In this document: positions 3,338-20,079 of the stretch, piece by piece
How positions within the stretch are numbered: the first letter of the stretch is position 1
How the letters are laid out: every line of letters begins with the position of its first letter
DNA from: an archaeon
GTDB lineage: Archaea > SpSt-1190 > DYHY01
Direction of reading: 5' to 3'
Length of the DNA: 20,079 bases
NCBI GenBank assembly: GCA_043803745.1
Contig: JAZDJS010000050.1
Location: forward strand, 1-20,079
The notes under the pieces: model-generated
Database searches by the model: none
Seen by the model: only the letters and a program-made list of their open reading frames with translations
What the model was told of the DNA's origin: nothing
Program-made: the position numbers and the translations under genes

Positions 3338-5596
3338 TCAGAACATCCTTCCGAAGGTGAGTATTGCCGCTCCAACAAGGACGACGACGACTCCCGCGAC
3401 AACATATGTGTTGAGCCCGGTTGTCGGGGGCTCGATCCCATACGCCTCCTCGGTATATCTCGCAACTGCGAAAGCTCCCTCTGCGGATTCAAGGGCTTTC
3501 TTGCAGAGGACGTTAGCGGAGTCGTAGTTTCGCTTGTTAAGCTCAGCCATGCATGCCGCAAGAGCCGTCTTGGCATCGTTGACCGCAACCTCGGCCGGAC
3601 CCGCGTCCTTCCCTGAATTCGCAATCCGCTTCACCTCGGCTTCGGCCTGGCTCACCTTCGTCTGCGCCCTTGACGCAATGTCCGCAACCGTCGTGACGTC
3701 GCCAGCTGACGGGGTTATCGAAACCTCGAGGGACTTGGTCAGGCTCCCGGACGAATCCGAAAGGGTCACTGAGAAGGTGCAGGAAACGGTCTTTCCAAGA
3801 GAGTTAACCTTGAATGAGTTCGAATAGCTTCCGCTTTCGGCAAGGGAAATTGACGATGCGTTCAGGAAGGAGGTCCCGGTTATCACGCCGGACGGGCAGG
3901 AATTCTCGACAAGGGGCTTGACGCTCCGCGTAAGGGTTGAGCGGGAAATTACCGAAAAGTCCACGCTAACCGGAGAGTCAGCCTGCACGCCAAGCTCGAC
4001 CCGCTCAGTCGAGAACGAAAAGTCGAAAAGACCGCCGGAAGACCGGGAAATCCGGATGTTCGCGGGAACGCACGACTCCTCGCCCGAGTCAATTGATGCG
4101 CAGAGCGAAAGCCCGTATTCGCCTTCCGTCGAGAATGTGGGGGCAATCTTGACTGGAACCGACCTCTCCTCGGCGGAGGCAAGGGTGAACTGGGTGTCGC
4201 TCGCGAAGCTCACCGCTCCCGCTGCGGAGCCTTTGGAATAAATTGAGAATGCGCCGCTTGAGCTTCCGGTGTTCTTCACCGTTGCAACGAATTCCGCATA
4301 TCCGCCCGGCTCGATTGAGAAGGGAGAATTCCGCGAAAGGGAAATCCTCGGATGGGCGCCCGACGTCTGTCCCGATGAGGTCGAGACAATCAGCTTCTGT
4401 ATCTGGACTTCGCCCGCCGTAGAGAACTCCGCAATCGAAATCTGGTATGTCCCTGCGACAGCAGGAGTCGTTACCGAGACCTTGTCGGTTGCGCCGGCCC
4501 CGATGGATATCTTCCTCGTTTCCGTCCCGTCAATCCGGACCCCTTCGGAAAGGGATTTCACGGTGAATTCGGTCGAGGCGGTGTCAAGGTTCGTTATCGA
4601 GAGGGAGAATGTCCCCTGGATATCGCCGGTCTTGAGGATGTACTCGGAGGGGAAAAGCGCAATCGACGCCTTGAGCTGTTTCAGGTAGTTGACCGAATAG
4701 TCGTATTGGTAGAGTTTGTTTTCGACTGAGAGGAGGGCTGAAAGGGTGTCGACGCAGGAAACATCCGGCTTGATTGTGAAAACGTTCTTGTTGCATCCGA
4801 GGCTGTCAACAATGCTGCCCTGGCAATATGCCTGCCAGCAGAGCGTGTATGCGTCAACCGGCTTGTTCTGGGCCCTGTTGATGACCGCCCTGGGGGAAAG
4901 GAGGAATTGGGAGCCCCTGTAAATCGTTCCGGGCACGTCAATGACCAGGTCATACGTTTCAATGCAGAGCCGGGAGGATGAAGAGCAGGCGCTCCGTTCG
5001 CATCCGCGGCAGTCGACGCAGCAGTTGAGATAGTTCTCGCCGGAATCGCAGACCCTGTTCCCGCATGCCTGATTTGTCCCGTTGATGATTGTTGTTGTCG
5101 TTGTCGATTGTGTCGGGTCGCCGCATGCCGCCGAATAAACGCAGGCCGCTTCCTGGAGGCATCCGGAAGGCGTGCAGGTCCGCTTCTGGAGCATCTGGTT
5201 CTGGGCGCAGGAGGACATTCCGCAGCCCAAATTAGAATATCCGGTGCAGCTGCACTCCGGAAGCTTGTCGCCTATGTTCACCTGGAAAACGTTCGAGAGG
5301 GTGTCGCCACACCGGGCCTGAATGTTGTATGTCTCCTTCTGCGGGGAATAGAAGCTCGCCCTGCCGTTGAGAATCGAGAACGCCCCGACAGGCGCCCCGG
5401 TTGAATTCGTCAGAACGAGCGTTCCGGAATCGCAGGGGGTTACGGTGCATTCGCAGGAAAGTTCGGCGGTGCAGGTTGTCGAGCAGGAAAGGGTTGCCGA
5501 GAATGCCGGAGAGGCGAGAACGATAGTCAGAACGAGCGCAATCAAACTAATTCCTGCCGTCTTGCCAGAGAACGAGAAAAATCCCCTTTCTTCCAT
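3338..5596 (-). CDS. Secreted/membrane-anchored Cys-rich surface protein (752 aa)
   Basis: Signal peptide, Cys-rich modules including CGNRVCDSGENYLNCCVDC, a Thr linker, several beta-sandwich-like segments, a helical segment and a C-terminal TM. TATA-like TTTTTAA about 22 nt upstream. Confidence 0.88.
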   Translation of the reverse strand: MEERGFFSFSGKTAGISLIALVLTIVLASPAFSATLSCSTTCTAELSCECTVTPCDSGTLVLTNSTGAPVGAFSILNGRASFYSPQKETYNIQARCGDTLSNVFQVNIGDKLPECSCTGYSNLGCGMSSCAQNQMLQKRTCTPSGCLQEAACVYSAACGDPTQSTTTTTIINGTNQACGNRVCDSGENYLNCCVDCRGCERSACSSSSRLCIETYDLVIDVPGTIYRGSQFLLSPRAVINRAQNKPVDAYTLCWQAYCQGSIVDSLGCNKNVFTIKPDVSCVDTLSALLSVENKLYQYDYSVNYLKQLKASIALFPSEYILKTGDIQGTFSLSITNLDTASTEFTVKSLSEGVRIDGTETRKISIGAGATDKVSVTTPAVAGTYQISIAEFSTAGEVQIQKLIVSTSSGQTSGAHPRISLSRNSPFSIEPGGYAEFVATVKNTGSSSGAFSIYSKGSAAGAVSFASDTQFTLASAEERSVPVKIAPTFSTEGEYGLSLCASIDSGEESCVPANIRISRSSGGLFDFSFSTERVELGVQADSPVSVDFSVISRSTLTRSVKPLVENSCPSGVITGTSFLNASSISLAESGSYSNSFKVNSLGKTVSCTFSVTLSDSSGSLTKSLEVSITPSAGDVTTVADIASRAQTKVSQAEAEVKRIANSGKDAGPAEVAVNDAKTALAACMAELNKRNYDSANVLCKKALESAEGAFAVARYTEEAYGIEPPTTGLNTYVVAGVVVVLVGAAILTFGRMF

Positions 5597-6025: not shown

Positions 6026-9000
6026 TCACTGGACCTTCCCTATGTAAATCGCCTTCACAAAAGCCGCCGGAACGCTAAGGTATGCGTCCCTCGGATATAT
6101 GAAGACTGAAACCTCGTGCGGTCCGGTTCCCCTGTAGCTGATGTTGCTGAAGGAAATCGTCCTGTTGCCAGTCCATCCGCTCCCTTCCCTCCGAAGCTCT
6201 GAGAACGCAAGCCCCTTCGAAGCGTTCCCGAGGATGAAAAAGTCCAGCGGAACCGCCTTGCTTGAGTTCATCACAAGGGTGCAGTTGTTCCTGTCCGGGA
6301 TTGTGCAGTTCCCGCCGACAACCGAGACCGTGAAGCTCGTTGCAGCTACTTCAAGGGTCTTGACCTCTGACGCCCGGTCGCCGCAGACAGCCTGGATTGA
6401 ATGGTTCCCCGCAAAGGGCGGGTAGAAGGAAATCCCTCCGGACGAATTCGCCTTGAGCTCTATTCTTGAGCCGAGCTTGGCTGATGCGACGTAAACCGTC
6501 CCCAGGGAGCAGTTCGTGAAGCCGTAGAAACACTCGAAATACTGGGTGCAGTTTGCGGTCTGGTTCTCAGGGGTCGGAGTTGGCACGGGCGTCGGGGTCG
6601 GGATTGTGTGGGGTATTTCAATCGTGTAGTTCACCGAGGAAAAGTTCCCGTCGGGAGTCACGGCAGTTGCGTAATACTTGTGCGTTGTTCCGGCAACATA
6701 CAGTCCTACCGTTGCGGAATAGGGAGTCCCCGAATCCTCCCCGACCTTGAGTCCGTCAATGAAGAAGCCTATCTTGGTTACCGCGCCGGAATAATTGCTC
6801 ACGTTCGCGCCAAGGGACACGTTGAAATTGGCGGTTCCTCCGAGATTTATCGTCGACCAGTTGCCGGTGACAATGGGGATGCAGGACGAGTCGTTCGCGC
6901 AGTAGGTCACTGTCGTGAGTCCGCAGATTCCCTCCGTGCATGTCTTGTTGAAAGCCATCTTGAGCTTTGAGCAGGACGCCATCCCGCAGCCAAGCTTCAC
7001 GGGGGTCGCGGCAGTGCTGTTAATGCAGATTTCGGTGCAGTTCTCGCCGGGGCAAGTGAGGGCGACCGCCGAGAGGGCGGTGTAGTTCGTCCAGTTGACG
7101 AGGGTCGACCCGTTGAGGAAGGAGAAGTTGTATTTCCCCTCCTTCGCAACCGGGGCCCTCCATATCCAGTAGAAGGGCGCGACGGCGTCCTGGGTGAGGT
7201 TTGCTGTAACGGGAATTTCAGTAGTGTCGGCATGCTTCATTGTAAGCCGAGGGGTCTGGTAAGGCGTTGTTCCGGTGAGCTGGGTAACGTTGATTGTTGC
7301 TATGCAGCCGGTCGTAAGCTTTTTGTCGGGGGTCGCGGGCTTGACCGAGATGTTCACTGCCGGAAGATCCGTCAGGCAGTTCCAGGCACCCGTTGAGAGG
7401 GCGGTGTAGGTCGTCCAGTTGACGAGGGTCGACCCGTTGAGGAAGGAAAAGTGGTATGGTCCGTCGCTCGCAATCGTAAGGTTCCAGGTCCAGTAGAAGG
7501 GCGCGACGGCGTTCTGCGTGAAATTCTTCGTTACGGGAACGCCCGTTGTCCCGGCATATTTCACTACAAGGCTTTCGCTGCTGTATGCGACAGTGCCGGT
7601 GAGCTGGGTAACGTTGACAAGGACTTTGCAGCCTGTCTTGAGCTCCTTGTTCGGCGTTGCGGGCGTGACCGAAATGTTCACTGCCGGGAGCGCCGGAACA
7701 TCCACCGGGCAGGTTATCGCGACTGTCGATGATGCGGTGTATTGCGTCCAATTGATGATTGCGGTGCCGGACAGGAAGGAGAAGTTGTATGTCCCGTTGT
7801 TGGGAACCGAGACGTTCCAGGTCCAGTAGAAGGGCAGGGCGGCGTTCTGCGCGAGGGTCTTTACCGCGGGGATGTTTGTTGTAATCCCTTTGTCCGTGTT
7901 ATTCACGACAAGGTTCTCGTTCTGGTAAGCCGATGCGCCTGTTTTCTGGGTCACGTTCACCGTAACCTTGCAGCCTGTCTTGAGCCTCTTGTCAGTTGTC
8001 GAGGGCTTTACCGAAATCTCGATGGGGTTGCCCATTGATTTTTCCATGCAGATCGGGACGCCCCTCCAGCAGCAGGAATCGTCGCTGTGGCAGGGGAGGG
8101 AAGTCTCGACCCAGCCGTTCGCAACCTCCTGGTTCGATGCCTCGAGCGTCATGCATTTCCGTTCCTTGCCGTCCGCCGATTTGCAGAGAAGGAGCTGGTC
8201 AAGCGGCGCGTAGCAGAGCTCGTGGTTCGGGCAGCAGGTGTCCTCAAGGGTGCAGGGCTTGAACCAATCCTCGGAATAGAGCCTGTTATTGTCGTCCGGA
8301 TTGACATAATACATCCCCGTCTCGTCCCTGTGGGCGAGGGAAGTTTCCAGGTCAACGCAGATTCGCGTCACGGTTGCGTCGGATTCGCATCCCGCCGGAG
8401 TGTATTCGTCGCCCCCGCAATCCTCCCCTTCGCATTCCTCTTCGTCACCGTCGCCGTTGTCTCCATTGCCCCAGCCGTTCCCTCCGCCGTTGTCACCGGA
8501 AGCCTGGCAGTTCGGGTTCGTCCGTTCATAGCACTGGAGATCCGAGTTTCCGCACGCCGATAAACTTGGTTCTATTTCGCCGAAAGCGGCATTCGCGTCG
8601 AAAGGGTCTTTTTTGCAGCTGTCATCAAAATCGCCGGCTCCGGGTTCCGTTTCCGAGCAAATCCTTTCAACCCCGGCTCCGCTTTTGCAGGTTCCTTCCA
8701 TGCAGACGTAGTCTGCTGAGCATATTCCGGGAGATTCGACAACTAAATCATTATTTGTGAGCGTTCGATGAATTGGCGTTCCTGTGAGATGTGTTCCCGT
8801 GAGTAGAACGCAAGCCCAGTTTCCATCGGGAGATTTTCCGATTCCGCATTCGCTCTCCTGCTCAGCCCTGACTGAAGCGTCAACGCAATCCCCTTCGACA
8901 ATTGCTCCGGCACCGGTGACTGAATAGACGCAGGGGGACCAGGTTCCTGAAATAAGATTGTTCGGATAGCAGGTCTGGTCAGCTCCGGTACATGCTCCGG

Positions 9001-10423
9001 AAGGCACTGCGGTGCCTGGAGCAAGGCAGACTTTCAGTCCGCTTGGAAGGGGGGTGCAGATTCCAGTTCCCCTACACTGTACGGTAGGTGAGCAAGAGCC
9101 GCCCAATGCTCCGGGCGCGGCAGCATACGCAGCTCCGGTTGAACAGGTCGAAACGGTGCCCGTCACGCTCGTGCAATATGCTCCTGTTCCGAGAAGACCT
9201 TCTTCGCATTTTTCAACGTGTATCGTGCAGCCCGGACCAACCATACATGTTCCGGTAGCGCCCCCCGGCGCATCAATAGCGCCTCCGCTTACGCAGCAGG
9301 CGCAGTTATCTCCGCAACCGGGAGTAGTGTATTCTATTCCGTCACAGGCAACTGGAATGTTAGCAGGCCAGAACATCACAGTCCCTCCCCCGGAGGAAGG
9401 CATGCACATTGCGGTGTAATCGGGTGTTGGCGAGTTGGGTAGCTGCAACCAGCTGCAACCAGTTGGATAAGATGTGCAGGTGCAATAGCGGTTATTTCCT
9501 GTTGGCGGATTAAGGAAAACAGAAAGGCTGCCAGTTAAACTGCTCAATTCGTCAACACATCCGACAGGGCAGGTTGCCGGGATTGTGCCCTCGCATAGAT
9601 GATAAGTTGAGGGCGCACTGGAAGGACTCAACCATGAACACGCGCCCAAAGCCGCAGTGTCGCAAGCAACGCTGGCGGGACAGTAGCACATTGTGTTGGG
9701 AGGTTGACTGGCGGGGTCGCAACCAGAGCCGCCTGCAGTTAATCCGGTGCAGTCTTCTGGCGGAATGACACTGTAAAACTTACTACCCTCAGAGCGAGGC
9801 GCCGTGTCCCATCTACAGTCATTGTATTGATTGTTAGCACAGAAACAGTTGTAATAACCCCCTGAGGTGGGGCTTGGGCCATCACAGTAGCAAGAGGTCC
9901 TGGAGGCTCCGCAAAGTGCTCGAGAACTGCAAGAAGCCACTTCTGATATGTGACAAACTCCTACTGCTGTCGCATCCCATCCACAAGAAGCACCTGAGTC
10001 CTGAACATAGCACTTGCTGGACGAAGTTGGTTTGCAGCCTGCGCAAGGACAGGTTGTTCCGGAGCTTCCGCCAGAAACTGATGTGGTTGTAGTTGAACTA
10101 GTGGTTGCAGTTGAAGGGTTGCATTGCTTGCATTTAGAAAATGCAACTCCAAAGCACTCCCAACACCACGTAGATGATGAATCTGCCCAGCCGCAGACTG
10201 AATTTGAAGCGGAATTAGAAGGGCAAGGATTGCTGCTTCCATCAACGTTGCAGAAACAATTTTCGCCAGGGCCAAGTTCCCCAGCAGAACAGCCAGATAT
10301 ACTTTTTTCTTCGGAACACGACCAAGCGAGCCCTCTTTCCCCCCAGACCCCGACGAAAACAACCGCAAAAGCGAGCACAAAAACCAATCCAAGAACTAAA
10401 AGAACCCTTCTGTCGTTAGCCAT
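6026..10423 (-). CDS. Very large Cys-rich secreted/surface protein (about 1465 aa) with three ~108-aa internal repeats
   Basis: Start placed at ATG 10423 (MANDRR...), 27 nt below TTTATTTAAA at about 10450-10459. N-terminal signal/TM, dense Cys N-half, Gly/Asn/Asp/Glu linker, PTPTP linker and many N-x-S/T sequons. Confidence 0.88.
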   Translation of the reverse strand: MANDRRVLLVLGLVFVLAFAVVFVGVWGERGLAWSCSEEKSISGCSAGELGPGENCFCNVDGSSNPCPSNSASNSVCGWADSSSTWCWECFGVAFSKCKQCNPSTATTSSTTTTSVSGGSSGTTCPCAGCKPTSSSKCYVQDSGASCGWDATAVGVCHISEVASCSSRALCGASRTSCYCDGPSPTSGGYYNCFCANNQYNDCRWDTAPRSEGSKFYSVIPPEDCTGLTAGGSGCDPASQPPNTMCYCPASVACDTAALGACSWLSPSSAPSTYHLCEGTIPATCPVGCVDELSSLTGSLSVFLNPPTGNNRYCTCTSYPTGCSWLQLPNSPTPDYTAMCMPSSGGGTVMFWPANIPVACDGIEYTTPGCGDNCACCVSGGAIDAPGGATGTCMVGPGCTIHVEKCEEGLLGTGAYCTSVTGTVSTCSTGAAYAAAPGALGGSCSPTVQCRGTGICTPLPSGLKVCLAPGTAVPSGACTGADQTCYPNNLISGTWSPCVYSVTGAGAIVEGDCVDASVRAEQESECGIGKSPDGNWACVLLTGTHLTGTPIHRTLTNNDLVVESPGICSADYVCMEGTCKSGAGVERICSETEPGAGDFDDSCKKDPFDANAAFGEIEPSLSACGNSDLQCYERTNPNCQASGDNGGGNGWGNGDNGDGDEEECEGEDCGGDEYTPAGCESDATVTRICVDLETSLAHRDETGMYYVNPDDNNRLYSEDWFKPCTLEDTCCPNHELCYAPLDQLLLCKSADGKERKCMTLEASNQEVANGWVETSLPCHSDDSCCWRGVPICMEKSMGNPIEISVKPSTTDKRLKTGCKVTVNVTQKTGASAYQNENLVVNNTDKGITTNIPAVKTLAQNAALPFYWTWNVSVPNNGTYNFSFLSGTAIINWTQYTASSTVAITCPVDVPALPAVNISVTPATPNKELKTGCKVLVNVTQLTGTVAYSSESLVVKYAGTTGVPVTKNFTQNAVAPFYWTWNLTIASDGPYHFSFLNGSTLVNWTTYTALSTGAWNCLTDLPAVNISVKPATPDKKLTTGCIATINVTQLTGTTPYQTPRLTMKHADTTEIPVTANLTQDAVAPFYWIWRAPVAKEGKYNFSFLNGSTLVNWTNYTALSAVALTCPGENCTEICINSTAATPVKLGCGMASCSKLKMAFNKTCTEGICGLTTVTYCANDSSCIPIVTGNWSTINLGGTANFNVSLGANVSNYSGAVTKIGFFIDGLKVGEDSGTPYSATVGLYVAGTTHKYYATAVTPDGNFSSVNYTIEIPHTIPTPTPVPTPTPENQTANCTQYFECFYGFTNCSLGTVYVASAKLGSRIELKANSSGGISFYPPFAGNHSIQAVCGDRASEVKTLEVAATSFTVSVVGGNCTIPDRNNCTLVMNSSKAVPLDFFILGNASKGLAFSELRREGSGWTGNRTISFSNISYRGTGPHEVSVFIYPRDAYLSVPAAFVKAIYIGKVQ
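7049..8023 (-). repeat. Three tandem intragenic ~324-bp (108-aa) domain repeats
   Basis: Units begin (I/V)xISVxPxTxxKxLxTGC at 8023, 7681 and 7357 and share PFYWxW, YxFSFL and NWTxYTA. Nucleotides 7082-7123 and 7406-7447 are nearly identical. Confidence 0.9.
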
Positions 10424-10567
10424 CCTAAGGGATTTTACCACTGAACTAGTTTAAATAAATTTAGCCGGGGCTTCTACCGAGCCTTCCGCGACTTCTGGCG
10501 CTTGGTTAATCGTCGCTGCGGCATGAGAAAATGCCGGAAAAGGGATTCTTTCAGCCCCTTGGAAAAT

Positions 10568-11767: not shown

Positions 11768-13663
11768 TCACATGCGTTCGACAACGGGAATCCCTAGGAA
11801 TGTCAGGCTTGAGCGGAGGGCGAAATAGGCAGCCCGGACAAGAGCGAGCCGCCTCTCCTCATGCTCGGACCCGAGGACCCGGCAGGTCGTGTAGAACTTG
11901 GAAAGTATTGTCGCAAGCTGGAAGGCATATTCGGAAATCCGGGAAATCTCGGTCCGGGTCCCCCAGACCTCCTTTCTCAGGCTTCCGGCAATCCTGACTA
12001 TTTCAGCCGGGAGGAACGCAATCTGCTTCGCCAGAAGATATTCATCCTCCTCAATTCCGGATATGTCGGAGATTTCCGCATTTCCGCCGGCCTTTTCCCG
12101 GCCGGCCTTTTCCAATATCCGGAGGCATCTTGCGAGGGCATACTGGAGATAGGGCGCGCTGTCCCCGTCGAAGGAAAGGGCGTCCTCCCAGCGGAAGGTT
12201 ATCTTCTTCTCCGGCGCGAATTTCAGGAGGGTGTACCTTACCGCGCCGACTCCGACAGCCTCGGCAATCCTTTTCTTCTCCTCCTCGGGGAGGGCCTGGT
12301 TCTTTTTCTCGACTTCCGCGCGCGCTCGCTCGACAGCCTCGTCAAGGACCTCGTCAACCGAAAACCCGACCCAGGTCCCCTTCCTGCCGGAGAATTTCCC
12401 CTCGGGAAGCCAGACGTGCTCGTAGGAAAGGTGGAAGCTCCTTGCCTCTTCAGAGGCAAAGCCGATTTTCCCGAGGATGGAATATACGATCCTCTGGGGG
12501 TGCGCCTGCTCGGCTCCGATGACGTTTATCACAATCTCGTATTTCGGCAGGGAGACCTCGTCTCCCGAGAGGGCGGATTTGCGGACCATCTGCCCATTCG
12601 GCTGCTTTTCGAAATCGGAGAACCTGAACGGGTTCTCGAAAAGACCGAACTTCCACATCTGGAAAGCCACGTCCTTCGCAGCATATGTCGCTGTCCCGTC
12701 GCTCCTGACAAGGACGACGTCGGTATCCTCAAGGTTTTCGAATCCGGGGAAGCCGGAAACGTCGCAGATTATGCATCCGGCCTTTTCGCCGGAATCGGCG
12801 CGCTTGACAACCCCTGTCGCGAGCATTTTCTCGAGGGCCTTGGAGAAAAGCCCCGCGGAGATTATCTCGGACTCGTAAATCTGGAGGTCGTGGAAAATCC
12901 CGAACCGGTATGCGGTCGCATACTGGGCGCGGACGCAGTTTTCGGCGATTTCCCGCGCGCCCGATGCAGCCGGCTCGACCCCCTTTTCCATGTCATGCAT
13001 TATCGCACGGACTGCCGCCTCGACCTCCGGATTCTTCCCGGTTTCGGCCTCGACATCAACGTAAAGGAGCCCGAGATTCTGGTCGAATTTCGGATGCAGC
13101 TTCTCCGCGCCAGGACGGTTCTTAACCCCCCAGTAGACCTTCGCAACCTGGAGCCCGAGGTTGTCGATATAGTCCATCTTGGTCACCAGGTATCCTGCGC
13201 CGGAAAGCACCCGGGAAAGCGTGTCCCCGAGAACCGCGTTCCGCGCATGCCCGATGTGCCAGGGCTTGTTCGGGTTCACCGAGGGGAATTCGACAAGAAC
13301 GCTTTTCCCGGAAAATGCGCGCGATTTGCCGTAATTCTCGCCGGCGGAAACCGCTTCGGAAACCGCGCGGGAAAGGAGCTCGCTCTTTTTGGAGAAGAAA
13401 TTCAGGTAGCCGCCCTTGTTCTCGACCCGCTCAATCAGGGGGAATTCCGGAAGCCTGATCGAGGCAATCAGGTCCTCCGCTATTCTGAAGGGCGCCCGCC
13501 TCTTCTCGCGCGCAAGCTCGAACGCAACGGAAGAACTGAGGTCGGCTCCGTCCGAAGCATCCTTCTGCGGGATCGCGAGCTTTTCCTTCGAAACGCCGAG
13601 CGCGGCGGAAACCTGCGAAACGAACTCGTCCCAGACGGGAATTTTATCAGCCATTTCAATCAT
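11768..13663 (-). CDS. argS: Arginine--tRNA ligase
   Basis: SVNPNKPWHIGHARN (HIGH motif), RSDGTATYAAKD, KFSGRKG, FDGDSAPYLQYA and C-terminal LGIPVVERM. Start is ATG 13663 or 13654; TATA-like TATAATAA at about 13691-13698. Confidence 0.97.
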   Translation of the reverse strand: MIEMADKIPVWDEFVSQVSAALGVSKEKLAIPQKDASDGADLSSSVAFELAREKRRAPFRIAEDLIASIRLPEFPLIERVENKGGYLNFFSKKSELLSRAVSEAVSAGENYGKSRAFSGKSVLVEFPSVNPNKPWHIGHARNAVLGDTLSRVLSGAGYLVTKMDYIDNLGLQVAKVYWGVKNRPGAEKLHPKFDQNLGLLYVDVEAETGKNPEVEAAVRAIMHDMEKGVEPAASGAREIAENCVRAQYATAYRFGIFHDLQIYESEIISAGLFSKALEKMLATGVVKRADSGEKAGCIICDVSGFPGFENLEDTDVVLVRSDGTATYAAKDVAFQMWKFGLFENPFRFSDFEKQPNGQMVRKSALSGDEVSLPKYEIVINVIGAEQAHPQRIVYSILGKIGFASEEARSFHLSYEHVWLPEGKFSGRKGTWVGFSVDEVLDEAVERARAEVEKKNQALPEEEKKRIAEAVGVGAVRYTLLKFAPEKKITFRWEDALSFDGDSAPYLQYALARCLRILEKAGREKAGGNAEISDISGIEEDEYLLAKQIAFLPAEIVRIAGSLRKEVWGTRTEISRISEYAFQLATILSKFYTTCRVLGSEHEERRLALVRAAYFALRSSLTFLGIPVVERM

Positions 13664-13716
13664 CGCCAACCTGAAATCCGGAAAGCTTGCTTATTATACT
13701 TTTGAAGAACTATTCG

Positions 13717-18556: not shown

Positions 18557-18928
18557 ATGAGAATCCTTTCAGGAAAGAAATTGCTCTTTGACAAGGTCAG
18601 GGTCTGCGACAGCTTCCTTTCGAAGGGCCTCGGGCTCATGTTTCGGAGAAAGCCGCTTGAAAAGGGCGAATGCCTCCTTTTCGTTTTCGACAGGGAACTG
18701 CCGCCGGCTCTCCTTGGGATACATATGAACTTCTGCCTCTTCCCGATAAAGGTCGCCTGGCTCGATTCCGACAGGCGCGTGGTGGATTGTCAGATTGCTG
18801 AACCGGCAAGCTTTCTCAAGCCGGCAACGTTGAAACTCCACAAGCCAAGGAAGCCCGCGAAATACATTATTGAGTGCTCCCCCGGCGTAAGGCTTGCTTC
18901 GGGGCAACGGCTCTCCTTCCGCAATTGA
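18557..18928 (+). CDS. DUF192 / UPF0127 family protein
   Basis: CDSFLSKGLGLMFR, LLFVF, IHMNFCLFPI.V.WLD and PAKYIIE motifs. Confidence 0.85.
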   Translation: MRILSGKKLLFDKVRVCDSFLSKGLGLMFRRKPLEKGECLLFVFDRELPPALLGIHMNFCLFPIKVAWLDSDRRVVDCQIAEPASFLKPATLKLHKPRKPAKYIIECSPGVRLASGQRLSFRN

Positions 18929-18960
18929 GGTCTTTTTTGGGGCGCAGCGGAAGATGTGGG

Positions 18961-18984
18961 AGATACATTAATAAACCAGATACA
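18961..18984 (+). promoter_or_regulatory. Promoter of the Cys leader/cysteine synthase unit: TTAATAAA (18968-18975) flanked by AGATACA direct repeats
   Basis: The TATA-like box ends 23 nt before ATG 18999; AGATACA occurs at 18961-18967 and 18978-18984. Confidence 0.6.
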
Positions 18985-18998
18985 GGTAATATACCGCA

Positions 18999-19055
18999 AT
19001 GCCTAGCGGACCGGGTAATTTGTTTTCCTGTCGCTGCTGCTGCGCTGCCTGTTAG
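18999..19055 (+). CDS. Putative polycysteine leader peptide MPSGPGNLFSCRCCCAAC (18 aa)
   Basis: Translated by hand; 5 Cys codons in the last 8, three of them consecutive; at the leaderless position after the TATA box; directly upstream of the cysteine-synthase-family gene. Confidence 0.72.
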   Translation: MPSGPGNLFSCRCCCAAC

Positions 19056-19142
19056 GCGGTTTTCTCAGACCGGCGAACTGTGACGATAAACCGGCTTGGC
19101 TGAATTCTGGCATTGCCGTTGCTTTTTGGTTTTTGGCGTTTT
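19056..19142 (+). terminator. Candidate attenuator region: alternative pairings plus repeated U-tracts
   Basis: CGGTTT (19057-19062) can pair with AGACCG (19067-19072) or AAACCG (19088-19093); TTTTTGGTTTTTGGCGTTTT at 19123-19142. Confidence 0.5.
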
Positions 19143-19177
19143 GAAGAAGATGATGATGGAAAAAGATGAACCAAAAA

Positions 19178-20079
19178 ATGAAAATATACAATAATGTGCT
19201 TGAACTATTTGGTAGAACTCCGCTTGTCCGGCTCAAAGGAGAGAAGGGAAGCGCGGAAATCGTTGCGAAACTCGAGTATCTTAACCCAGGAGGGTCAGTC
19301 AAGGACAGAATTGCCCTTGCAATGGTTCTTGACGCCGAGCGGAAGGGCCTTCTGAAGCCAGGGGGGCTAATTGTTGAACCCACAAGCGGGAACACAGGGA
19401 TAGGGCTTGCCCTTGTTGCGGCAGCCAGGGGATATAGGACGCTTTTCGTGCTTCCCGACAAGACATCCAAAGAGAAGGTGGGGATTCTCCGAAGCCTCGG
19501 GGCCGAAATTGTCCTCTCCAAATCCGGGGTCGCCGTCGACAGCCCAGAATCTGACGTTTCACTCGCAAGGAAACTCGCGGAAGAAAGGGGCGCGTTCATG
19601 CCCAACCAATATGACAATCCGGAAAACCCGCGCGCGCATTATGAGGGAACCGGCCCGGAAATCTGGGAAGCTTCGGAAGGGAAAGTCGACGCCCTTGTCG
19701 GGGGAATGGGGACTGGGGGGACGCTCAGCGGGTCTGGGAAATTCCTGAAGGAAAAGAACCCTGCGCTCCTGATTGTCGGGGCGGATCCGGAGGGCTCTGT
19801 TTTCCACAAGCTCAAGGAAGGAAAGCGCCCGGATTCAAGCGCGTACAGGATTGAGGGAATTGGGAAGAATTTCGTGCCCGGGAACGTCGACCTCTCCCTT
19901 GTCGACCGGTTCGTCGTTGTCTCCGACGCGGACGCATTCTCTGAAGCAAGACGGGTCGCAAGGGAGGAGGGCCTCCTTGTCGGGGGTTCGGCAGGAGCCG
20001 CTATTTCCGCCGCAAGGAAGATCGCCCGGGAACTGGGGGAGGGCAAGCGGGTTGTCGTAATCGTCCCGGACCGCGGGGA
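19178..20079 (+). CDS. Cysteine synthase / cystathionine beta-synthase family PLP enzyme, 3'-truncated by the window edge
   Basis: Absent from the ORF track because there is no stop. Hand translation gives MKIYNNVLELFGRTPLVRL...KLEYLNPGGSVKDRIA (PLP Lys), EPTSGNTGIGLA, NQYDNPENP.AHY.GTGPEI, GMGTGGT and IEGIG. PDKTSKEK and ADPEGS look CBS-like. Alternative start at 19166. Confidence 0.93.
   Translation, partial: MKIYNNVLELFGRTPLVRLKGEKGSAEIVAKLEYLNPGGSVKDRIALAMVLDAERKGLLKPGGLIVEPTSGNTGIGLALVAAARGYRTLFVLPDKTSKEKVGILRSLGAEIVLSKSGVAVDSPESDVSLARKLAEERGAFMPNQYDNPENPRAHYEGTGPEIWEASEGKVDALVGGMGTGGTLSGSGKFLKEKNPALLIVGADPEGSVFHKLKEGKRPDSSAYRIEGIGKNFVPGNVDLSLVDRFVVVSDADAFSEARRVAREEGLLVGGSAGAAISAARKIARELGEGKRVVVIVPDRG

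What the first reader, a model, noticed from the sequence alone, without database searches (positions are those of the whole stretch)
18961..19180. Leaderless polycysteine uORF ahead of cysteine synthase/CBS: candidate ribosome-mediated cysteine attenuator in an archaeon
Seen: a TATA box, then ATG 18999 at a spacing similar to other start codons in this window, encoding MPSGPGNLFS-CRCCCAAC-stop. After it come mutually exclusive pairings of CGGTTT, three U-tracts and the cysteine-synthase-family start about 120 nt later. Established: leader peptides rich in the cognate amino acid regulate bacterial biosynthetic operons, and leaderless polycysteine sORFs act as cysteine-responsive attenuators in mycobacteria. 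Archaea couple transcription and translation and terminate at U-rich tracts (aCPSF1/FttA). Inference: ribosome stalling on the Cys run when Cys-tRNA is low blocks termination at 19123-19142 or frees the downstream start. I know of no described archaeal example for cysteine, but have not searched.
Basis: partly seen in the sequence, partly recalled or inferred. Interest (0 to 1): 0.88.

Follow-up and report, generated by a model that had tools for sequence, protein, structure and literature searches.

The report
Cysteine-sensing leader peptide in archaea
A tiny, promoter-adjacent reading frame that ends in a cluster of cysteine codons sits in front of a cysteine-synthase-type gene in this small archaeon and in several other archaeal lineages, which points to a ribosome-based cysteine sensor of a kind so far described only in bacteria.

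Summary
ATG 18999 to TAG 19055 encodes MPSGPGNLFSCRCCCAAC. A TATA-like box lies 31 nt upstream, the modal spacing for leaderless genes in this genome. A CysK/CBS-family gene starts 122 nt downstream, at 19178.

It is not chance:
- In this genome it is the only one of 12,304 short ATG frames with both a Cys-rich tail and a TATA box at that spacing.
- Among 119 archaeal cysK upstream regions, 15 carry such a frame, against 1 of 119 on the reverse complement and a mean of 0.45 in shuffles. They come from at least 6 families.
- In one class, all 3 cysK-bearing genomes have Cys-rich frame, then tRNA-Cys, then cysK. One is followed by cysS.
- In another order, 12 of 13 loci have such a frame, and a covarying hairpin holds its stop codon.

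Best reading: a translated leader peptide that senses Cys-tRNA supply. How the signal reaches cysK is unresolved. The window's leader is not unusually stable, equilibrium folding does not open the start region, and T-tracts are not general. No RNA data exist. My searches found no archaeal report. It is a new variant of a known bacterial kind.

The parts
18933..18938 (+). T6 tract just after the stop (18926-18928) of the upstream DUF192 gene (18557-18928). It is the likely end of the preceding transcription unit.
   Evidence: T5+ tracts are 2-4 times enriched in the 0-80 nt after stop codons in this genome.
18968..18975 (+). TATA-like box (TTAATAAA), 31 nt before the ATG of the short frame.
   Evidence: The spacing equals the genome-wide mode for leaderless genes. 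It is the only TATA-like match on the + strand in 18900-19200. Similar boxes lie at -26 to -35 in the other small-genome lineages.
18999..19055 (+). Leaderless short ORF: 18 codons plus TAG, peptide MPSGPGNLFSCRCCCAAC.
   Evidence: It is unique in the genome for Cys-rich tail plus TATA spacing. Counterparts occur in the two other cysK-bearing genomes of the family.
19029..19052 (+). Cluster of five Cys codons in eight codons (TGT, TGC x3, TGT). The last one lies directly before the stop. This is the proposed stalling site.
   Evidence: In a test that ignores reading frames, all 7 runs of four or more TGY triplets upstream of archaeal cysK lie in an ATG frame and end 0-4 codons before a stop.
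19044..19060 (+). Predicted 7-bp hairpin. Its 5' arm is the last sense codons. The stop codon lies in its loop and 3' arm.
   Evidence: duplex -12.5 kcal/mol, z -1.5. The window's own 36-nt stretch is not exceptional (z -0.23). The equivalent hairpin covaries in another order.
19057..19093 (+). Alternative pairing: the hexamer 19057-19062 with its complement 19088-19093. It excludes the stop-codon hairpin because both use 19057-19060.
   Evidence: duplex -11.9 kcal/mol, z -2.2 against shuffles. The same-genus relative keeps the 3' partner and pairs it with a different 5' sequence.
19079..19094 (+). 16-nt block nearly identical in the leader of the same-genus relative (locus L005).
19113..19142 (+). 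Block with three T-tracts (T5, T5, T4). It is partly conserved with the same-family relative L002. It is a candidate archaeal termination signal, a pairing partner of the start region, or both.
   Evidence: All 3 family members have a T5+ tract 30-50 nt before the cysK start. Only 115 pairs of T5+ tracts within 15 nt exist in 2.46 Mb of both strands.
19169..19177 (+). A-rich 9-mer directly before ATG 19178. It is perfectly complementary to 19123-19131 in the T-tract block.
   Evidence: present in the MFE in all states. The duplex is not exceptional against shuffles (z -0.44).
19178..20077 (+). 5' 300 codons of a CysK/CBS-family PLP enzyme gene, cut by the contig end. An alternative in-frame ATG lies at 19166.
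   Evidence: Homologues found in 120 of 401 archaeal genomes searched.

Best explanation
The 18-codon frame is a translated leader peptide at the 5' end of a leaderless transcript that continues into the cysK/CBS-family gene.

Its terminal cluster of Cys codons acts as a sensor of charged tRNA-Cys. When cysteine is scarce, ribosomes stall on 19029-19052. When it is plentiful, they reach the stop and leave.

The position of the ribosome decides which of the competing pairings around and just after the stop codon forms. These are the hairpin 19044-19060 and the pairing 19057-19062 with 19088-19093. That choice is passed on to the T-tract block 19113-19142, which can act in two ways: as an oligo-U termination signal for archaeal RNA polymerase or FttA, or as the pairing partner of the start region 19169-19180.

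Shown here:
- the frame, its promoter spacing and its uniqueness in the genome;
- recurrence in many archaeal lineages;
- its link to tRNA-Cys and cysS;
- a covarying stop-codon hairpin in one order.

Inferred:
- that it is translated and that stalling occurs;
- that expression rises under cysteine limitation;
- which output (termination or translation) is used.
For: (1): leaderless architecture is common in this genome. The frame's TATA box is at the modal -31.

(2): there is no other TATA-like box between the frame and cysK, so cysK most likely shares this promoter.

(3): 1 of 12,304 short ATG frames in the genome combines a Cys-rich tail with a TATA box at that spacing.

(4): 15 of 119 archaeal cysK upstream regions have a frame of 4-45 codons with at least 3 Cys in the last 8 codons. 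The reverse complement gives 1 of 119. Two hundred shuffles give a mean of 0.45 and a maximum of 3. The hits fall in 8 family labels (f1, f15, f80, f68, f76, f42, and weaker ones in f97 and f34).

(5): the test that ignores reading frames shows the runs are in frame with an ATG and a nearby stop.

(6): both TGT and TGC are used. The N-terminal parts vary in length (8-25 codons) and sequence, as expected if only the Cys codons matter.

(7): the leader has no detectable nucleotide similarity to its relatives (all E above 0.03), yet the Cys-rich frame is kept.

(8): in one class, 3 of 3 cysK-bearing genomes have Cys-rich frame, tRNA-Cys(GCA), then cysK on one strand. One continues into cysS.

(9): in another order, 12 of 13 loci have such a frame. 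A hairpin holds the stop codon in its loop: 85.7% of cells are paired against 29-47% when partners are slid, 3 of 8 pairs change on both sides, and 0 of 500 shuffles reach the covariation score.

(10): the genome has CysRS, and no SepRS passes the cut-off. Cys-tRNA charging should therefore follow free cysteine.

(11) Precedent: polycysteine leaderless short ORFs are cysteine-responsive attenuators in mycobacteria (10.1101/834739, passages read).
Against: - No transcript, 5'-end, 3'-end or ribosome data exist. No sequencing run was listed.
- The window's leader is no more stable than shuffles (z -0.04; spacer z +0.14).
- The window's stop-codon stretch is unexceptional (z -0.23).
- Equilibrium folding with a stalled-ribosome footprint leaves the cysK start unchanged in the window. 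Across 22 leaders the mean change is +0.02, with 5 up, 3 down and 14 unchanged.
- T5+ tracts are no commoner than A5+ tracts in such leaders (9 of 17 each).
- No hairpin-plus-U terminator is found in the leader.
- Only 3 genomes of the family carry cysK, so no covariation test is possible for this leader.
- A second A/T-rich 8-mer at 18986-18994 could place the transcript start inside the frame. An in-frame TTG at 19020 would still read the Cys cluster.
- cysE was not found above cut-off in this 90%-complete genome, and the gene is truncated. The enzyme's role is therefore not settled, nor is the direction of control.
- Most archaeal cysK loci examined (104 of 119) lack the element.
Confidence: 0.72

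Rival explanations
1. The frame is a regulatory upstream ORF but not a cysteine sensor. It would damp or couple cysK expression constitutively, or act through the nascent peptide or the stop-codon hairpin regardless of Cys-tRNA supply.
For: The stop-codon hairpin is the best-supported structure. In one order the C-terminal motif C-x-Q-C-R-[LVA] is conserved beyond the Cys codons. Equilibrium models show no Cys-stall-specific effect.
Against: The only feature shared by all lineages is the Cys cluster near the stop. The conserved Arg-Leu codons in that order are explained by the hairpin arms. The link to cysK, tRNA-Cys and cysS is specific. Other matches to a four-Cys-codon pattern in five genomes were out-of-frame coding sequence.
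Confidence: 0.1
2. The frame encodes a functional small Cys-rich peptide, for example one that binds metal or carries sulfur, and is merely co-expressed with cysK.
For: Small Cys-rich proteins exist in archaea. One with four conserved cysteines is described in Methanosarcina mazei (PMC11456600, passages read).
Against: The peptides are 8-25 residues long. They share no spacing such as CxxC and no conserved N-terminus across lineages. In several the Cys residues are simply consecutive at the C-terminus. They occur only next to cysK or tRNA-Cys.
Confidence: 0.07
3. It is an RNA-only element. The UGY repeats and the hairpin would be bound by a protein or pair with another RNA without being translated.
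For: RNA structure around the stop codon is under selection in one order. In family f15 the Cys codons are predicted to pair with a conserved segment just after the stop.
Against: All 7 runs of four or more TGY triplets are in frame with an ATG placed at leaderless distance from a TATA box, and end 0-4 codons before a stop. No such arrangement is seen on the reverse complement. Between the two same-genus leaders, Leu and Phe codons differ by synonymous changes. No Rfam family matches.
Confidence: 0.07
4. It is a chance open frame in an intergenic region.
For: Twenty short ATG frames with Cys-rich tails exist in the genome. One look-alike on contig C21 turned out to be an out-of-frame reading of an Ala run in a real gene.
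Against: (enrichment and uniqueness), plus recurrence in independent lineages.
Confidence: 0.02

Closest known systems
Polycysteine leaderless short-ORF attenuators of mycobacteria (Ms5788A; Rv2334A upstream of cysK1-cysE). Source: 10.1101/834739, abstract start and passages read.
   Same: Both are leaderless short ORFs with a polycysteine tract at the C-terminal end and an untranslated spacer of about 100 nt. In both the downstream gene is in cysteine metabolism, cysK among them. Sensing is proposed to work through ribosome pausing at Cys codons.
   Different: This one is in Archaea and uses a TATA-box promoter. In mycobacteria the Cys tract pairs with the Shine-Dalgarno region of the next gene and control is translational. 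In the window the Cys cluster shows no such pairing with the start region (-1.4 kcal/mol, z +1.48), and T-tracts are present. Some archaeal versions include tRNA-Cys.
Predicted Cys leader peptides of Actinobacteria (cys operon; cbs of Bifidobacterium longum). Source: PMC1262725, passages read.
   Same: Both have runs of Cys codons near the stop codon of a short upstream frame, before cys or cbs genes. Neither has a conserved terminator hairpin. That paper proposed factor-dependent termination, as in the tna operon.
   Different: Those are bacterial and would use Rho. An archaeal analogue would have to use oligo-U tracts or FttA (PMC13681488, passages read).
Classical leader-peptide transcription attenuators (trpL, hisL, recalled). 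Also the uORFC-8-2 motif upstream of cysS in Rhodobacterales (PMC8632094, passages read).
   Same: All have codons of the cognate amino acid in a short upstream frame, competing pairings that start inside the frame, and a U-run downstream.
   Different: Those depend on a G+C-rich terminator hairpin directly followed by U. None is found in the window. Bacterial examples of this classical type were seen in passing upstream of cysK homologues.
T-box riboswitches and other RNA sensors of cysteine or sulfur supply
   Same: They have the same physiological purpose: sensing tRNA-Cys charging or sulfur status in the leader of cys genes.
   Different: They need no translation and have a large conserved RNA fold. 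No Rfam family matches the window's leader, even at E up to 10.

Membership tests
Ribosome-mediated leader-peptide attenuator (general) | A short ORF lies on the same transcript, upstream of the regulated gene. | tested here: inconclusive
   The TATA box sits at the modal leaderless distance. No other TATA-like box lies before cysK. There are no RNA data.
Ribosome-mediated leader-peptide attenuator (general) | The ORF is enriched in codons of the amino acid made or handled by the downstream gene. | tested here: met
   5 of 18 codons are Cys, all in the last 8. The downstream gene is CysK/CBS family.
Ribosome-mediated leader-peptide attenuator (general) | The ORF and its key codons are conserved in relatives while the rest drifts. 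| tested here: met
   3 of 3 cysK-bearing genomes of the family have it. So do 15 of 119 archaeal loci, against 1 of 119 in the control. TGT/TGC vary. There is no nucleotide similarity otherwise.
Ribosome-mediated leader-peptide attenuator (general) | Mutually exclusive RNA pairings link ribosome position to a terminator or to the start site. | tested here: inconclusive
   Competing pairings exist (-12.5 and -11.9 kcal/mol, z -1.5 and -2.2). There is no excess stability and no effect on the start region at equilibrium. A covarying stop-codon hairpin is found in another order only.
Ribosome-mediated leader-peptide attenuator (general) | Expression responds to supply of the amino acid. | not testable with these tools
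   This needs a reporter or transcriptome experiment.
Mycobacterial polycysteine leaderless sORF class | The Cys tract pairs with the ribosome-binding region of the downstream gene. | tested here: not met
   Duplex of 19029-19055 with 19160-19183: -1.4 kcal/mol, z +1.48. It is met in one other archaeal leader, L076.
Classical intrinsic-terminator attenuator | A G+C-rich hairpin is directly followed by a U-run between the leader ORF and the gene. | tested here: not met
   The terminator scan finds none in 19056-19177. The T-tracts have no preceding stable hairpin.
T-box or other Rfam leader RNA | Match to the family's covariance model. | tested here: not met
   only sub-threshold chance matches (best E 1.5).

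The most novel reading that the evidence does not exclude
Archaea possess amino-acid-sensing leader peptides. Leaderless polycysteine frames would control cysteine synthase, and in some lineages tRNA-Cys and CysRS as one unit, by coupling ribosome position to transcript fate. This would be the first natural case in which regulation by translation-transcription interplay could be tested in the archaeal domain. It appears to have arisen, or been kept, in several distant lineages.
Probability: 0.65. Interest if true: 0.9.

Novelty: new variant of a known kind. Interest (0 to 1): 0.82.

Why it matters
Leader-peptide attenuation is a textbook bacterial mechanism. My searches found no description of an archaeal counterpart (passages).

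[quoted passage not shown] A conserved leader whose only common feature is a Cys-codon cluster next to the stop gives a concrete, mutable test object. With it one can ask how a stalled archaeal ribosome influences termination at oligo-U tracts, FttA action, or downstream initiation.

The element also marks a compact cysteine supply unit (leader, tRNA-Cys, cysK, cysS) in very small archaeal genomes. This is informative about how such organisms budget cysteine.

Tried and rejected
- Sequencing runs: none was listed for 18600-19600, so no expression evidence either way.
- Closer relatives: the metagenome scan and the genome-collection scan with the CysK protein returned only homologues of at most 56% identity, mostly bacterial. 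They served as negative controls. By the tail criterion with any start codon, 3 of 80 metagenome loci scored, none of them resembling the archaeal element. By the tail criterion alone, 0 of 76 genome-collection loci scored.
- Nucleotide search with the leader in the 17 genomes of the phylum found nothing significant.
- A cysteine regulon: a second polycysteine frame in this genome (contig C21) is an out-of-frame reading of an Ala run in a leaderless gene. The other matches to a four-Cys-codon-plus-stop pattern in five genomes were out-of-frame coding sequence.
- T-tracts as a general feature: rejected (9 of 17 with T5+ against 9 of 17 with A5+). Sorting genome-wide T-tract pairs by gene context was uninformative.
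- Translational masking as a general equilibrium effect: not supported.
- Thermodynamic stability of the family's spacers: not supported.
- MAFFT could not put the hairpin's 3' arms in register. I used a covariance model instead. That alignment is fitted to the model. It contains the 5 training sequences and one spurious match (E 0.92). The model matched only 8 of the 13 hairpins.
- Coverage of the survey: about two dozen of the weakest cysK matches listed were not fetched. Frames more than 400 nt upstream were missed by the first screen; one such frame, in G208, was found later.
- Supplementary files of the archaeal Ribo-seq papers were closed. Their lists of upstream ORFs could hold related cases.
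Full report
**What is there**

The window is a whole 20,079-base contig of a 1.23-Mb, 51-contig, 90%-complete genome. It carries an archaeal-type PEP carboxylase.

- A DUF192 gene ends at 18928 and is followed by a T6 tract.
- A TATA-like box (TTAATAAA) lies at 18968-18975.
- ATG 18999 opens an 18-codon frame, MPSGPGNLFSCRCCCAAC, closed by TAG 19053-19055. Five of its last eight codons are Cys, using both TGT and TGC.
- A PALP-domain gene starts 122 nt later, at ATG 19178. Its best NCBIfam matches are cystathionine beta-synthase and cysteine synthase A. It is cut by the contig end after 300 codons.
- The spacer holds T5, T5 and T4 tracts at 19123-19142.

**Is the frame likely to be translated?**

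- In this genome TATA-like 8-mers pile up 33 to 28 nt before the first start codon of long ORFs (85 motif matches in that bin range, before the starts of at most 1008 long ORFs). Leaderless mRNAs are therefore common. The frame's box lies at -31, the mode.
- It is the only TATA-like match on the + strand between 18900 and 19200, so cysK has no recognisable promoter of its own.
- Of 12,304 ATG frames of 4-45 codons in the genome, 20 have at least three Cys in the last eight codons and 20 have a TATA-like box at -36 to -26. Only this one has both.
- A look-alike on contig C21 proved to be an out-of-frame reading of an Ala run at the start of a real leaderless gene.
- One caveat: an A/T-rich 8-mer at 18986-18994 might shift the transcript start into the frame. 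An in-frame TTG at 19020 would still read the Cys cluster.

**Conservation**

The phylum holds only 17 species genomes. Five have a cysK homologue.
- All three in the window's family carry a short ATG frame 105-141 nt upstream of cysK that ends in Cys codons. Each has a TATA-like box 30-35 nt before the ATG.
- The four loci of the large-genome family in the same class do not carry one.

I then widened the survey. In a sample of 401 archaeal genomes, 120 have a homologue at E up to 1e-45.
- I examined 400 nt upstream of 119 loci: 40 delivered by the searches and 79 of 80 fetched. One fetched locus was too short. About two dozen of the weakest matches were not fetched.
- With a fixed criterion (frame of 4-45 codons, at least three Cys in the last eight), 15 of 119 loci score. 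The reverse complement gives 1 of 119 with ATG starts, or 3 with any start. Two hundred shuffles give a mean of 0.45 and a maximum of 3.
- The hits carry eight family labels. Two of them (f97, f34) look weaker.
- A test that ignores reading frames found runs of three or more TGY triplets in 14 of 119 regions. Nine of these, including all seven runs of four or more, are in frame with an ATG and end 0-4 codons before a stop. None of the four runs on the reverse complement does.
- Controls: the tail criterion scores 3 of 80 mostly bacterial metagenome loci (with any start codon) and 0 of 76 genome-collection loci.
- Kin are not independent, so these figures overstate the number of events. The hits nevertheless lie in lineages related only at domain level.

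**Lineage details that bear on function**

- In the class of G151, 3 of 13 genomes have cysK. All three show, on one strand, a TATA box, a 9-13-codon frame ending in four to six Cys codons (one has two more codons before the stop), tRNA-Cys(GCA), and then cysK. In one, the next gene is cysS (E 7e-51 on 145 residues).
- In the class of G027, 3 of 3 cysK loci of family f15 have 10-12-codon frames ending in four or five Cys codons directly before the stop. Two further loci have weaker versions.
- In the order of G308, 12 of 13 loci of families f80 and f145 have a 18-25-codon frame. Ten pass the strict criterion. Most end in C-x-Q-C-R-[LVA].
- Searching five of these genomes for four Cys codons plus a stop-like triplet found no further genuine frames. 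The other matches were coding sequence read out of frame.
- The element is therefore tied to cysK, tRNA-Cys and cysS rather than being a general feature.

**RNA structure**

In the G308 order, the last sense codons and the bases just after the stop form a hairpin with the stop codon in its loop. The four-base arms differ between genomes yet stay complementary.
- I built a covariance model from five sequences. It matched eight of the 13 hairpins, five of which were the training set, plus one spurious hit.
- On the resulting, model-fitted alignment, 85.7% of cells pair, against 29-47% when partners are slid.
- Three of eight pairs change on both sides, and 0 of 500 shuffles reach the covariation score.

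Across 25 Cys-rich frames:
- The 36 nt around the stop fold better than shuffles (mean z -1.67, against -0.21 for 63 control stretches; Mann-Whitney p 1.2e-5; kin not independent).
- The stop is enclosed by a pair in 25 of 25, against 261 of 357 controls.

The window has such a hairpin at 19044-19060, but its z is only -0.23.
- It competes with pairing of 19057-19062 to 19088-19093 (-12.5 and -11.9 kcal/mol; z -1.5 and -2.2).
- The same-genus relative keeps the 3' partner within a nearly identical 16-nt block, and pairs it with a different upstream sequence.

**How the signal is passed on: unresolved**

Against a structure-driven switch in the window:
- The whole leader is no more stable than shuffles (z -0.04).
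- The family's spacers give z of +0.14, +1.64 and -0.19.
- Blocking the nucleotides under a ribosome stalled at the first or the last Cys codon leaves the cysK start region unchanged in the window. It changes by +0.02 on average in 22 leaders: 5 up, 3 down, 14 unchanged.
- The Cys cluster does not pair with the start region, unlike the mycobacterial case.

For termination:
- T5+ tracts are 2-4 times enriched after stop codons in this genome.
- Closely spaced pairs of them are rare.
- All three family members have a T5+ tract 30-50 nt before the cysK start.
- Part of the T-tract block is conserved with the same-family relative.

Against termination as the general output:
- T5+ tracts occur in 9 of 17 leaders, and so do A5+ tracts.

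The T-tract 19123-19131 is also perfectly complementary to the nine bases before ATG 19178, so it could mask the start instead. In locus L008 a four-part arrangement can be read from the fold: frame, partner, T-rich anti-ribosome-binding segment, ribosome-binding site. That would work kinetically, which equilibrium models cannot capture. This reading is my inference.

Archaeal polymerases terminate at oligo-dT tracts, and FttA prefers U-rich nascent RNA (PMC13681488, passages). That a stalled ribosome covers about 12-15 nt beyond its A site is recalled knowledge.

**Physiological logic**

The genome has CysRS above cut-off. It has no SepRS above cut-off, so charging of tRNA-Cys should track free cysteine. 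cysE was not found above cut-off and the gene is truncated. The enzyme could therefore be a cysteine synthase using another substrate, or a CBS-type enzyme. The direction of control (induction under limitation) is assumed by analogy.

**Comparison with what is known**

- Mycobacterial polycysteine leaderless short ORFs act as translational attenuators. One lies before cysK1-cysE (10.1101/834739, passages).
- Actinobacterial Cys leader peptides without hairpins were predicted in 2005, with factor-dependent termination proposed (PMC1262725, passages).
- A cysS leader with two Cys codons and a terminator is predicted in Rhodobacterales (PMC8632094, passages).
- My full-text searches and the passages read from two archaeal small-proteome papers showed no archaeal cysteine leader peptide.

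I therefore file this as a new variant of a known kind. It has the same sensing principle in a different domain, with a different promoter type and necessarily different termination machinery. In some lineages tRNA-Cys lies between the frame and cysK, with cysS following in one.

**Verdict**

- The interpretation as a cysteine-linked, translated leader is well supported by comparative evidence.
- The output mechanism is open.
- Confidence in the sensor reading is about 0.7.
- Of the two outputs, I give termination at the T-tracts and masking of the start roughly equal and modest odds.

Noticed in passing
L328 (G151), L329 (G341), L330 (G208); tRNA positions: In one archaeal class the Cys-rich frame is followed by a tRNA-Cys(GCA) gene and then cysK on the same strand. 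In G341, cysS follows cysK. A/T-rich stretches just before the tRNA could be a separate tRNA promoter, so co-transcription is not certain.
   Followed up: partly
L045, L046, L049, L033, L331-L340 (order of G308), between TATA box and ATG: One to three copies of the palindrome TTAAC-N4-GTTAA flank the TATA box upstream of the Cys-rich frame. In L049, which lacks the frame, they lie directly upstream of cysK. This is probably an operator for a transcription factor acting on top of the leader.
   Followed up: no
L171, L214, L217 (metagenome contigs) and L296 (record titled Candidatus Gottesmanbacteria): These are bacterial-style cysteine attenuators upstream of cysK homologues. Each has a sigma-70-like promoter, a 20-23-codon frame with three consecutive Cys codons in mid-frame, and a G+C-rich hairpin followed by a T-run.
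   Followed up: partly
L003, L043, L047 (one genus, family f19): A conserved 9-10-codon frame with a single Cys codon next to the last sense codon lies upstream of cysK. It sits behind a TATA-like box and a short palindrome. It may be a low-copy version of the same idea.
   Followed up: no
L001 compared with L005 and L002: The same-genus relative shares a 16-nt leader block and part of the leader peptide with the window, yet its CysK is only about 45-47% identical. The other-genus relative has a 61% identical CysK and shares the T-tract block instead. This suggests gene replacement or recombination behind a retained leader.
   Followed up: no
window 6026-10441 (-) and 3338-5596 (-): Two long ORFs of 1471 and 752 residues have no NCBIfam match. 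They were not scanned against Pfam.
   Followed up: no
window 11768-13669 (-) and 11861-13705 (+): The arginyl-tRNA synthetase gene on the minus strand is shadowed by a 614-codon open frame on the plus strand that has no Pfam match. It is most likely a non-coding antisense frame.
   Followed up: no
G000 contig C21, 70136-70177: An apparent 13-codon frame ending in four Cys codons is an out-of-frame reading of the Ala-rich N-terminus of a leaderless 224-codon gene that starts at 70152. It shows how such frames can arise by chance.
   Followed up: yes
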